Shown here: in pieces, positions 14,587 through 54,000 of the stretch | Numbering within the stretch: position 1 is the stretch's first letter | Layout: each line of letters begins with the position of its first letter | From: Euglena gracilis | Taxonomy: Eukaryota | Reading direction: 5' to 3' | Assembly (NCBI GenBank): GCA_039621445.1 | Contig: CP154954.1 | Coordinates: 2,790,001-2,854,000 of the forward strand | Length of the DNA: 64,000 nucleotides | Translations under genes and position numbers: made by a program | The notes under the pieces: generated by a model | What the model was told of the DNA's origin: nothing | Databases searched by the model: none | The model's input: only the letters and a program-made list of their open reading frames with translations

Positions 14587-15005
14587 ATGGCCATCGTCAT
14601 CCCAGACGAGTATGGGTACGTGGTGCTGGTGATCGGGCTCTCCTGGTCAGGCTTCCTTTTTTTGTTTTTTTTGACGAAGCTCACCCCGGGGGGGGGGGTG
14701 CTGTAGGCAGGCAGGGGGGAAGGGCATTTTCGACCTATTCGGGTTTTGGGTGGGTCGTGCTATAGCACACGCCCCGTTGCCGAAGGCACCGGGGCCTCAA
14801 AATGGCCATTTCAAGGGATAATTGGCTGGGTCAGCAGGCACCAGGGCCAGAACTGACCGGGGGGGGGGGGACTGCCCACCTGCTCATAGCACCCCCCCCA
14901 CGTTGGCAAAAACAAGCCTGGTCCTGGTTCACGAACCTGTACCTGATGACCCTCGTGATGAACGCCCGCAAGAAGTACAACGTGCCGTACCCGGCGCTGT
15001 ATGCC
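14587..15005 (+). pseudogene. Extra copy of MAPEG exons 1-2 (14587-14644, 14926-15005); could alternatively be an alternative 5' end
   Basis: MAIVIPDEYGYVVLVIGLS|WFTNLYLMTLVMNARKKYNVPYPALYA. Differs from the downstream copy by T vs M; there is no exon 3 before the next copy. Confidence 0.65.
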
Positions 15006-51000: not shown

Positions 51001-54000
51001 CGACCTCCTGCCCCCTCCACTCCGTGGCGTGGACGGCGTCCAGGCCGCTTCCCGACAACAGCTTTCGAAGCCTCCCGACCCCCCCCCCCCGGTCGGCCCG
51101 GGCTGAGGTTGGAGGAGAGGTGGCACTTCCGGCAGGTGAGGACTGTCCAACTTAAGTGAGCGGGTCACCAGGCTTGTGCTTAGTCGGTTGCCTACCCCAC
51201 GGGGGGTGCTAGGGGCAGGCACCCGATCTGACCTCCCCCGGGGGGGGGTAGGGTTTTGGGGGTCCCTGCCATAGCAGGCACCCCCTCCGATCCTGGCGCC
51301 GGGGCCCGGAAAAGGCCATTTTCAATAAAAATTTTCTGGGTCCCTCTTAGTTGCACTAAGTCTTCTTGTCTGTTGTCCCCTCCGGACCCCTATCCCCCCT
51401 GGGGGTGCCTGCTAGGGCCAGGCACCCTATAGCACCCCCCCCCCCGGTCGGTAAGCACAAGCATGCGGGTCACTCCAAACCCGTTTAGCCCTCTCCAGGC
51501 TGTCAAGCCCGAGAAACGGTCTGGTCATCAGTTTTGGCCAATGTGTGAAAAGTTGTCATATAGGTGTCAATATTGATGTGGGCTTATATCTATTATATTA
51601 CATGTATTATTATCATAAAAATACATTGTCTGCTGATTTAGGTCCCCAGCATGGCCGGCCTTCAAGTCACAGTTTCTTTTGGGGGATAGGTGTTCGTTCA
51701 GATGGCCAAAACGACACCGGGGCACAGTTGCATAATGCCGCGACGCCACAGGAGAGCGGCCTGGCTTTATGGCAGGCGGCGGCCGTCAACCCCCACCCGC
51801 TGCTGCTCTGCGGTGTGCAGCGCGTGACACAGCCCGGCTCGCCGGAGCATTCCGTAGATTTATGCCAACCGACGGGGTGTCGATGTCGACGTCATTGTCA
51901 TGAACTTCCCCACCTGCCTGCCACCAACGTGCCACAACCCCCGGCCATACCAGGCGATGCCCGAGACCTGATTGTGTCTGAGAACTGGACATTGGACATT
52001 GCCTGAGACCTGACTTGGCTGGGGTCGGTTACCAAAGAGGGCAGGGGTGCCGTAACCCCCCCCCCCCCCCCCCCCCCCCCCCCCCCCGCGAATAGAAGCC
52101 CCCCTCGGTTTTCAACCAGTTTTCCGAATAGTGCCCCCCCCCCCCCGAACGGAAGCCTCTCAGTTGGGACGGCAAGGCAGGGGTTGAAGGCTGCAGCCAT
52201 TGCTGCTTTGAACCTCAACAGTCCTTTGGCATCTTCAGCCATTGGTTCAATGAGCAGTATTGTGGAAGCATCCAAATCGTCCACAAGTGTAACATTTTGC
52301 AGCAGATTTGACATGGCTGGAAAAGGACATATGGACCCCCTGGTTTCAGAATAGTGCCCCCCCCCCCCCGAAAAAAGCCCCCCCCGGGTTTTCGACCAGT
52401 TTCCCAAATAGCAGCCCCCGGGGGCTTCTATTCGGGGGGGTTATGGGGCTGCGTCTCGGCCGGGAGCTTCACTCTCGCGATGTTCATCAAGGTGGATGGG
52501 GCCCTGTTGACCGCTGCCTTGTCCGCCGCCGGCAACGTGACAGACGGCGTGATATTGGACCTACTCCGGTGTGTGGCGCACAAATAGTCACAAATTAGTC
52601 ACAAATAAAATCTTTCCCCACAACAGAAACACACACCCACACCCGTACCTGCACCCGCACTGGCCCTGGCGCGGTGTGGTACACAGCCTTCGTCGCCCGC
52701 TGGCAGTCCTACCTCCGCTCCTTGGTGGATCCATCCCTCTCGCTGGCGCCGGTCGCCTCACTGGACGCTGTGTCCGCCGCCCCCTGCCCGTCACCGCCTT
52801 CCCGAGAGAACCCGCCTCCCGCAGCCGCATCCTCCTCGCTCCCCGGGCATCCGCCAGTGCCGGCTCCGGTTCAGCAGCCCATGCCTGCCCCGGCGACCCC
52901 GCGGATCCCGCCTGCCCCCCTCCCGGGCTCATCCAGCTCCCCGACGCCAACCCCCCCGCCAGCACGGCCACGCCCCCCCCGGTCGTCCCTACACCACCCC
53001 AGCCGGGCACGGCGCCCCGCCCCTCCACCGATGGATCCCCGGCCCCTCAAACGGCAGTCCACCCTGACCGCCTGGATGCAGCCGCCCCGCGCCCGGTCGC
53101 CGCCCCACGGCTGGGCAACGGAGGGCCCTCCGACCTAGCCTCGGCGGGCGCGGGCGCGGGAATCACGGTGATGGCCATCAGCCACCGCCGTTGAGCCCAT
53201 GCAGCGCCCGGTGATGGACGACTCCATCACCAACCGAACCCCCCCCCCCCCCGTACCTGCACCCGCACCCACACCCACACCCACACGCACCAACACACAC
53301 ATGCACACACCCTGCAACTGCAAATCTCTCCACAGACAGGGAAGGTCTGTTGTTGCCATAGATTCATTTAACACTGGTGATGCCCTTCCCTGTGGAAACC
53401 TTAGGGGGGCGCTTTGAAAACAGCACATGGGTGGGTTTGGCCCAGGAAGAAGTGCCCCTTCCGTAGGGGTCACTATGCGAATCTATGGTCGTTGGGAAAT
53501 GAATATCTGCTGTGTAACAACACTCGCAGAAAAGGATTTCGCTGGATGTGAATTTGGATCACGCTGGATTCGGGTTTTTTTTGTTTGGAGAATGCTGCCG
53601 GCACTCTCCATCCCACAACCAAATCCTTTTGCGTCCCGGGAACCCTATCACCCTTCGGCCCCACCTGCTCACTCTCCACCCGCGCCCTGCGTCCAGGTTC
53701 CCCCCGGACTTCTGGAGCTGGTCCCTCCTCCATCGGCCGGCGTCGCAAATCCGGGGCAACAGCACCCCGTCCGTCGCGGTCGCCATGGTGCTCAACACGG
53801 TGAATGCTCAAACGGTGGTCAGTGCTCAAGGTGGCCCGGAAAACTCCTGCCTGTTGACTTTGAATTCTTTGCTCTCTCTTTGTTTGAGATTGGTACACAG
53901 ATCTCATTCTTGTCCGTCCCCAATTGGCTGCAGGAATTATGTCTGCGGACCAATGGTCCAATGAGCAACGGGGAAAAAGGCGGACCAAGTTCAAGGTTTT

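What the first reader, a model, noticed from the sequence alone, without database searches (positions are those of the whole stretch)
14640..51473. One MITE family (D) supplies introns to two unrelated genes and also exists free
MAPEG intron 1 (14645-14925 and 17925-18205, TSD 7/8) and the intron 46957-47249 (TSD 8/8) share interior sequence with each other and with the free element 51169-51465 (TSD 8/8). Homologous introns at non-homologous sites are the hallmark of introner elements.
Basis: partly seen in the sequence, partly recalled or inferred. Interest (0 to 1): 0.85.

Follow-up and report, generated by a model that had tools for sequence, protein, structure and literature searches.

The report
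Transposon family; one copy splits a gene

Summary
The repeat family is real. The MAPEG and 46957 elements align far above shuffles, and the 51169 element is a more distant member. All are about 270-300 bp. They have CAGGC termini and 8-bp target-site duplications (TSDs), so they are hAT-like MITEs.

The two MAPEG copies are a single insertion carried by a 3280-bp tandem duplication. Removing the element plus one TSD restores a gap-free match to a MAPEG profile. All six MAPEG exons are open and colinear. The element therefore split a coding exon and is most likely spliced out. This is inferred; I have no RNA evidence for it.

The 46957 element has no demonstrable gene around it: no significant coding periodicity, no family hit and no RNA junction. 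The "free" 51169 copy lies inside the span of a spliced RNA contig, 31 nt after a probable exon donor, so it is nested in an intron.

Only one of four independent full-length copies is an exon-splitting intron. Transposon-made introns with 8-nt TSDs are already published for dinoflagellates. Verdict: partly supported; new member of a known kind.

The parts
14640..14928 (+). D element in MAPEG module 1: TSD 14640-14647, element 14648-14920, TSD 14921-14928
   Evidence: nhmmer E 9.8e-81; this copy was used to build the profile
17920..18208 (+). The same insertion in the tandem duplicate (MAPEG module 2): TSD 17920-17927, element 17928-18200, TSD 18201-18208. Candidate GC..AG intron at 17931-18196.
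   Evidence: (98.9% identical to module 1)
15184..15575 (+). Decayed D copy (15184-15486), followed by a decayed pseudo-exon 2 that carries a 9-nt deletion and a stop codon
   Evidence: (E 6.6e-5)
31084..31391 (+).
   Evidence: (E 1e-15)
46952..47252 (+). D copy 46960-47244 with a perfect 8-bp TSD and a degenerate 3' terminus. No exon is demonstrable beside it.
51161..51473 (+). D copy 51169-51465 with a perfect 8-bp TSD and 13/14 terminal inverted repeat. It is nested in an intron and belongs to a very abundant subfamily.
17867..21065 (+). MAPEG gene. HMM-matched exon cores: E1 17867-17926, E2 18199-18291, E3 18873-18923, E4 20174-20263, E5 20635-20715, E6 20955-21065.
49614..56783 (+). Multi-exon gene seen as pieces of one 2301-nt contig of an RNA(?) run: 49614-49747, 53696-53823, 55418-55583, 56629-56783. 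A probable further exon ends at 51137, before the donor GTGAGG.

Best explanation
Family D is a non-autonomous cut-and-paste DNA transposon (MITE). It is about 270-300 bp long, with CAGGC... terminal inverted repeats, G/C-run-rich subterminal repeats and 8-bp target-site duplications. It was presumably moved in trans by a hAT-like transposase.

One copy inserted into the first coding exon of a MAPEG (MGST3-like) gene. The gene stayed intact, so the element is most likely removed from the transcript and now is intron 1. This is an intron created by a transposon. That gene module was later tandemly duplicated.

The other copies (31092, 46960, 51169, and the decayed 15184) are ordinary insertions in non-coding DNA, and at least one of them sits inside a larger intron.

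Shown: the family, the TSDs, the insertion into coding sequence, and the intactness of the gene. Inferred: the splicing and the exact splice sites. The only canonical pair is GC..AG inside the terminal repeats, which would leave 15 nt (5 codons) in frame.
For: Family.

TSD plus inverted-repeat architecture: one search gave 16 hits for 8-bp repeats flanking CA-initial inverted termini. Nine remain after dropping 6 microsatellite hits and 1 poly-C hit. Thirty Markov simulations gave a mean of 0.2 and a maximum of 1.

MAPEG identity: a motif scan fetched 118 metagenome loci. These yielded 52 full ORFs, 44 of them non-redundant. Six of 6 tested are PF01124, with E 2e-28 to 3e-23. Their HMM, searched against all 2117 window ORFs, hits six colinear + strand exons: E2 4.4e-11, E5 2.1e-6, E3 1.3e-3, E4 8.9e-3, E1 0.041, E6 0.051.

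Insertion into an exon: deleting the element plus one TSD gives a gap-free alignment of 60.2 bits, against 56.0 bits for +2 residues and 52.6 bits for +5 residues. The resulting spacing of 21 residues equals the modal spacing in homologues (21 in 22, 22 in 11, motif absent in 11 of 44).

Coding signature across the empty site: 0.43, which falls in the top 0.5% of 3000 random windows.

Age: a decayed copy of element plus exon 2 lies beside the intact ones. The insertion is therefore old, yet the live exons kept GC3 of 0.90-0.96 (E1, E2) and 0.88 over all six.
Against: There is no RNA evidence for the MAPEG junction.

The only GC..AG pair is followed by C. Three of 4 RNA-contig-supported acceptors can be read as AG followed by G, if the printed piece start is moved by one base.

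The +5-residue product falls outside the spacing seen in 33 homologues and lies within the first hydrophobic stretch.

I could not draw a canonical E3-E4 junction.

No protein of this gene exists in either protein library.

Exon 2's HMM hit is partly circular, because the homologues were fetched with its own motif.
Confidence: 0.62

Rival explanations
1. One reading: D is a true introner family that supplies introns to at least two unrelated genes in this window, with 46957-47249 a spliced intron.
For: The TSD is perfect at 8/8, and GC..AG pairs are available (46958..47244 or 46963..47240). One + frame is open for 66 codons across the empty site. The RNA(?) run X18 has a mean depth of 3.63 in bin 46671-47337, similar to bins that hold a verified exon.
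Against: Empty-site periodicity is 0.10, reached by 23% of random windows (11% when an open frame is also required). The GC3 scan flags no segment on the + strand between 45457 and 49546, although it recovers 4 of 5 RNA-contig exon pieces. Pfam finds nothing on three flanking ORFs. No junction at the element is among the 15 joints printed of 190. The only library hit is a Logan ORF with 90% amino-acid identity, which looks like neutral drift.
Confidence: 0.15
2. The MAPEG modules are transposon-disrupted pseudogenes. The element is not spliced, and a functional MAPEG copy lies elsewhere in the genome.
For: The locus is full of partial duplicates and decaying copies: a decayed exon 2 at about 15550, and a second set of 3' exons scoring 10.7 against 24.0 bits. 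No canonical splice pair restores the conserved spacing. No matching protein is in the libraries.
Against: All six exons are open and colinear, with strong GC3 and conserved family residues. They are clearly better preserved than the neighbouring decayed copy that carries the same element.
Confidence: 0.2
3. The similarity is only low-complexity G/C runs, and there is no family.
For: The elements are rich in G and C runs.
Against: Mixed-sequence blocks are shared. Alignment z-scores are 7.7-24.8, with 0 of 100 shuffles reaching the observed scores. The profile finds a further full-length copy at E 1e-15.
Confidence: 0.02

Closest known systems
Introner-like elements of dinoflagellates (Polarella glacialis classes with 8-nt TSD; Symbiodinium families with 4-nt TSD). 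Roy et al., bioRxiv 10.1101/2020.10.14.339549 (parts 1-2 of the text read); Gozashti et al. 2022, PMC9860276 (passages).
   Same: A TIR plus TSD DNA transposon inserted into coding sequence becomes an intron. An 8-nt TSD occurs in several Polarella classes. GC/GA/GT donors and AG followed by G are seen here at RNA-contig exon ends, if the printed ends are read one base along at the acceptors.
   Different: In the simple published classes the 5' splice site comes from a TSD starting GH and the 3' site from the element's end; other published classes recruit sites at other positions. Here the TSDs do not start GH and the element ends in ...CCTG. The only canonical pair lies inside the terminal repeats. 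Only one intron is supported here, against hundreds to thousands per published family.
Amoebophrya introner elements (Farhat et al. 2021, PMC7789003; passages read)
   Same: Introns with terminal inverted repeats that can pair, and direct repeats overlapping the exon/intron borders. Exact removal would be non-canonical, as for many of those introns. The folds pair the two ends (z -2.9, -2.6, -4.4).
   Different: Their direct repeats are 3-5 nt, not 8. Non-canonical splicing is documented there by RNA-seq and is not shown here.
hAT-type MITEs (superfamily features recalled, not taken from a call)
   Same: 8-bp TSD, short CA-initial inverted termini, no coding capacity, many copies. Position 2 of the TSD is T in 8 of 12 elements and position 7 is A in 6 of 12 (my count). 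This leans towards the recalled hAT target pattern.
   Different: No transposase was seen, and the terminal motif fits the recalled consensus at only 4 of 5 positions. The superfamily is unproven.

Membership tests
MITE (non-autonomous TIR DNA transposon) | Terminal inverted repeats | tested here: met
   CAGGC is invariant at the 5' end of 5 of 5 copies. Matches are 13/14 for D51169 and 8/8 for D31092. D46960's 3' end is degenerate.
MITE (non-autonomous TIR DNA transposon) | Target-site duplication of fixed length | tested here: met
   8 bp in every case: 8/8, 8/8, 7/8, 7/8. The architecture is far above chance.
MITE (non-autonomous TIR DNA transposon) | Many copies in the genome | tested here: met
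   The window holds 4 independent full-length copies plus 1 duplicate and 1 decayed copy. In DNA run X17 the summed contig depth at 51188 is about 125,000, against about 6-14 in unique bins. One search warns that this depth is no copy number; I read it only as a very abundant subfamily, perhaps of the order of 10^4 copies.
MITE (non-autonomous TIR DNA transposon) | Empty sites or insertion polymorphism | tested here: not met
   No empty site was seen. X17 contigs bridge both ends of D46960, and the Logan ORF P0001 ends at the same stop inside the element. The insertion is therefore shared with relatives.
Introner / introner-like element | The element's insertion itself creates the intron (exons abut once element plus TSD are removed) | tested here: met
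   Met for MAPEG only: gap-free 60.2-bit match and modal spacing.
Introner / introner-like element | Homologous copies form introns at non-homologous sites in unrelated genes | tested here: not met
   Within the window, 1 of 4 independent full-length copies splits exons. A genome-wide test was impossible.
Introner / introner-like element | The element is spliced from transcripts | not testable with these tools
Introner / introner-like element | Splice sites carried by the element or recruited from the TSD | tested here: inconclusive
   GC at element positions 4-5 and AG at -6/-5 are present in 5 of 5 copies. They are part of the terminal repeat, and the MAPEG acceptor lacks the following G.
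hAT superfamily | hAT transposase / autonomous partner | not testable with these tools
   None is in the window and no genome is held.
MAPEG (PF01124) | Match to the family profile over its length | tested here: met
   Pfam itself found nothing on single exon ORFs. An HMM built from 44 homologues, of which 6 of 6 tested are PF01124, matches six colinear exons covering HMM positions 8-151 of 159.

The most novel reading that the evidence does not exclude
The palindromic termini of family D (CAG|GC at one end, AG four bases before the other end) form a built-in, orientation-independent splice-site pair. Any insertion into an exon could then be spliced and would leave a fixed 15-nt, in-frame footprint (3 + 4 nt of termini + the 8-nt TSD). 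Alternatively, the element is removed exactly in the TSD register by non-canonical splicing of the Amoebophrya type, in an organism with otherwise dinoflagellate-like GC/GA/GT-AG introns.
Probability: 0.3. Interest if true: 0.5.

Novelty: new member of a known kind. Interest (0 to 1): 0.3.

Why it matters
If RNA confirms it, the MAPEG case is a clean single-locus example of intron birth by a DNA transposon. The donor family, the TSD and the restored ancestral exon can all be read directly, and the splice sites do not come from the TSD as in the simple published classes.

It adds a family and possibly a splice-site arrangement to a phenomenon already documented at genome scale in dinoflagellates. 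It does not open a new question.

Tried and rejected
- **Whole genome:** none is held, so no genome-wide count was possible.
- **Pfam:** nothing relevant on 10 ORF pieces; the only hit was an unrelated weak one, E 0.18.
- **Exon-2 ORF against other libraries:** nothing in the 5.8-billion protein index, the 1.84-billion representatives or PDB. The ESM Atlas gave only a weak lead: rank 6, score 0.75, in a cluster where 19% of members are MAPEG.
- **RNA families:** Rfam and tRNA scans found nothing.
- **Spliced leader:** the 21-nt dinoflagellate spliced-leader motif gave 0 matches with up to 3 mismatches. The dinoflagellate assignment therefore rests only on splice-site style, GC3, tandem gene modules and contig totals, and is an inference.
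- **D core in public contigs:** a 30-nt core of the abundant D subfamily gave 0 exact matches in viral contigs and in metagenome contigs.
- **Earlier scan notes:** none.
- **RNA holders:** no RNA holder is listed for 43600-53500. Raw RNA runs X21 and X24 laid almost only on repeats.
- **Rejected reading for the MAPEG element:** insertion into a pre-existing intron. No residual intron remains after removing the element plus one TSD.
- **Rejected exon guess:** my early guess for 'exon 4' at about 18990-19040. The HMM places that part of the protein at 20174-20263.
- **Supplements:** the supplementary tables of the introner papers were closed. They may list families with these termini, so I cannot say this family is unpublished.

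Full report
**What is at the coordinates.** All four elements exist. The fold outputs and a script fix the elements as follows:
- 14648-14920 and 17928-18200, with TSD CTCCTGGT/GTCCTGGT (7/8)
- 46960-47244, with TSD ACTCTGGC (8/8)
- 51169-51465, with TSD CGGGTCAC (8/8)

The two MAPEG copies are 98.9% identical over 282 nt and lie in a tandem duplication of period 3280. They record one insertion event.

**Is the family real?** Yes.
- BLAST: the MAPEG and 46957 elements share 73.5% over 132 nt (E 4.6e-15) and 79.4% over 68 nt (E 1.3e-9). The 46957 and 51169 elements share only 80.7% over 57 nt (E 1.6e-8). The MAPEG and 51169 elements share only a 22-nt inverted match.
- Local alignment against 100 dinucleotide shuffles per pair: z = 24.8, 7.7 and 11.9, with 0 of 100 shuffles reaching the observed score. 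The 24 pairings of these three with eight other MITEs of the window gave z from -0.9 to 5.1.
- A profile of the three elements, run over the window, found a further full-length copy at 31097-31381 (E 1e-15) and a decayed copy at 15184-15486 (E 6.6e-5). It also gave weaker partial hits on other MITEs.
- The 31092 copy has termini CAGGCTGT/ACAGCCTG and TSD GTTTATAT/GTTTATAC, and sits in an AT-rich microsatellite.
- In the five-way alignment CAGGCT is invariant at the 5' end. Several mixed-sequence blocks are shared. The MAPEG and 46960 copies form one subfamily with a T-rich tract, and 51169 and 31092 form another.
- Contigs of a DNA run that jump from 51399 to 47167 show that other genomic copies are mosaics of the two subtypes (table 5c).

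**What kind of element?**
- The window is full of elements with 8-bp exact direct repeats flanking CA-initial inverted termini. There are 16 hits, 9 after dropping 6 microsatellite and 1 poly-C artefacts. Thirty first-order Markov simulations gave a mean of 0.2 and a maximum of 1.
- Family D members are 273-297 bp, have no coding capacity, and fold so that their ends pair (z -2.9, -2.6, -4.4).
- In DNA run X17 (a second organism label) unique bins have a summed contig depth of about 6-14, and position 51188 has about 125,000. One search warns that this depth is no copy number, so I take it only as a sign that the 51169 subtype is very abundant, perhaps of the order of 10^4 copies.
- An 8-bp TSD and CA-initial termini point to a hAT-like transposase. 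That link is recalled knowledge, and no transposase was seen.

**MAPEG.**
- Pfam and three large sequence libraries found nothing with single exon ORFs.
- I therefore scanned metagenome contigs with a degenerate pattern for the exon-2 motif.
- From these I took 52 full-length ORFs, 44 of them non-redundant. Six of 6 tested are PF01124, with E 2e-28 to 3e-23.
- An HMM of the 44, searched against all 2117 stop-to-stop ORFs of at least 15 residues in the window, hits six colinear + strand pieces covering HMM positions 8-151 of 159:
  - E1 in 17753-17950, E 0.041
  - E2 in 18046-18372, E 4.4e-11
  - E3 in 18597-19049, E 1.3e-3
  - E4 in 20081-20410, E 8.9e-3
  - E5 in 20587-20799, E 2.1e-6
  - E6 in 20712-21170, E 0.051
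- The exon-2 hit is partly circular, because its motif fetched the homologues. The other five are independent of that motif.
- The first module (14587 onward) has only E1 and E2.
- A second set of 3' exons, in a 4760-bp tandem repeat, scores lower for E5 (10.7 against 24.0 bits) and looks to be decaying.

**Did the element create the interruption?**
- Joining exon 1 and exon 2 after removing the element plus one TSD gives a gap-free alignment to the family HMM at 60.2 bits. Keeping 2 or 5 extra residues gives 56.0 and 52.6 bits, with a gap at the junction.
- The distance between the two conserved N-terminal motifs is then 21 residues. Among the homologues it is 21 in 22, 22 in 11, and the motif is absent in 11 of 44.
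- Nothing is left over, so the element did not land in an older intron. It split a continuous exon.
- Across this empty site the codon-position GC contrast is 0.43 (GC3 0.93), which is in the top 0.5% of 3000 random 128-nt windows.

**Is it spliced?** This is inferred, not shown.
- For: all six exons are open, keep family residues, and have GC3 of 0.90-0.96 (E1, E2) and 0.88 over all six as extracted, one of them out of frame. A neighbouring copy of element plus exon 2 has decayed to a 9-nt deletion and a stop codon. The insertion therefore appears old, and the live copy appears to have remained under selection.
- Against: no register of exact removal gives G[TCA]..AG. The only canonical pair is GC at element positions 4-5 and AG four bases before the element's end (17931-18196, or 14651-14916). 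It leaves 15 nt in frame.
- That acceptor is followed by C. Three of 4 RNA-contig-supported acceptors can be read as AG followed by G if the printed piece start is moved one base into the exon.
- I could not draw a canonical E3-E4 junction either.
- For E5-E6, a GT..AG pair with G after it exists if the protein carries a longer loop. Extra residues left by introns may therefore be tolerated here.

**The 46957 element.**
- The longest + strand frame across the empty site is 66 codons. On the - strand it is 158 codons up to the site.
- Codon-position GC is 0.60-0.68 in all six frames of a 248-nt empty-site join. Over 128 nt the best frame shows a contrast of 0.10. A contrast of 0.10 is reached by 23% of random windows, or 11% with an open frame.
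- A GC3 scan that recovers 4 of 5 RNA-contig exon pieces flags no + strand segment between 45457 and 49546.
- Pfam found nothing.
- The only library hit to the - strand ORF is a Logan ORF, P0001, with 86 of 96 residues identical and ending at the same stop inside the element. The insertion is shared, and the substitutions look neutral.
- X17 contigs bridge both ends of the element.
- No junction at the element is among the 15 joints printed of 190.
- One caveat remains. Run X18 has a mean depth of 3.63 in bin 46671-47337, like bins holding a verified exon. Transcription of something there is not excluded.

**The 'free' 51169 element.**
- One 2301-nt contig of X18 maps in pieces at 49614-49747, 53696-53823, 55418-55583 and 56629-56783. 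Contig positions 135-467 are not among the 16 printed rows's table 8 (18206 more rows were not shown).
- A GC3 exon-like segment at 50943-51101 runs on to a donor CAG|GTGAGG at 51137/51138, 31 nt before the element.
- X18 depth in that bin (2.69) fits one exon of about 145 nt at the contig's depth of 12.4; this arithmetic is mine.
- The element is therefore most likely nested in an intron of a multi-exon gene.

**Organism.** It is unnamed. The features are dinoflagellate-like:
- GT/GC/GA donors, and AG then G at acceptors when the printed piece starts are moved by one base
- extreme GC3
- tandem gene modules
- contig totals of about 0.5-2.3 Gb in DNA runs

The spliced-leader motif was not found. 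The assignment is an inference.

**Comparison with what is known.**
- Transposon-made introns are documented at genome scale in dinoflagellates. Symbiodinium families have 4-nt TSDs. Polarella has 15 classes, several of them with 8-nt TSDs (10.1101/2020.10.14.339549, parts 1-2 read; PMC9860276, passages).
- In Amoebophrya such introns are documented with non-canonical borders (PMC7789003, passages).
- The present case fits that kind.
- It differs in where the candidate splice sites lie: inside the terminal repeats, not in a TSD starting GH.
- It also differs in that only one of four independent full-length copies in this window splits exons.

**Verdict.** This is a new member of a known kind, of modest interest.

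Noticed in passing
window 1353-1532 and 7199-7375 (+): Exon-like segments with very high GC3. Their translations carry what I recall as sirtuin (NAD-dependent deacetylase) motifs, so a sirtuin gene probably spans about 1.3-7.4 kb. This was read only.
   Followed up: no
window 33113-33260: An interstitial array of the telomere-type hexamer CCCTAA, with about 25 units (family D5).
   Followed up: no
window 20009-29500: A tandem duplication of period about 4760 bp copies MAPEG exons 4-6. The second set scores lower against the family HMM (E5 10.7 against 24.0 bits) and seems to be decaying.
   Followed up: partly
window 20716-20954 (MAPEG intron between E5 and E6): This intron contains a core resembling family D (nhmmer E 0.017 at 20847-20915) and is flanked by the direct repeat GCGAG. 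A canonical GT..AG pair followed by G exists only if the protein keeps about 12 extra loop residues.
   Followed up: partly
window 2170-2640, 4396-4741, 8991-9439, 9969-10474, 32609-32920, 40300-40884, 48061-48386, 61716-62967: Eight further elements with exact 8-bp TSDs and CA-initial inverted termini, from other families. None has a coding signature across its empty site: contrast 0.02-0.10.
   Followed up: partly
window 48096-48324: RNA run X21 shows many reads that change strand at the G-run and C-run arms of the 48061 MITE: 66 and 33 reads at two joints. Their loose ends are long G or C runs. This may be fold-back or a library artefact at a hairpin.
   Followed up: no
window 14648, 31092, 46960, 51169: All four independent D copies lie in the same orientation on the + strand, which is the strand of every gene seen here. 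The chance of this is 1 in 8, so it is only a hint of orientation bias relative to transcription.
   Followed up: no
window 51188 and 51327: At these two positions nearly all of the very deep contig depth in run X17 shows G where the window has T or A. This copy differs from the family majority at both positions (table 3).
   Followed up: no
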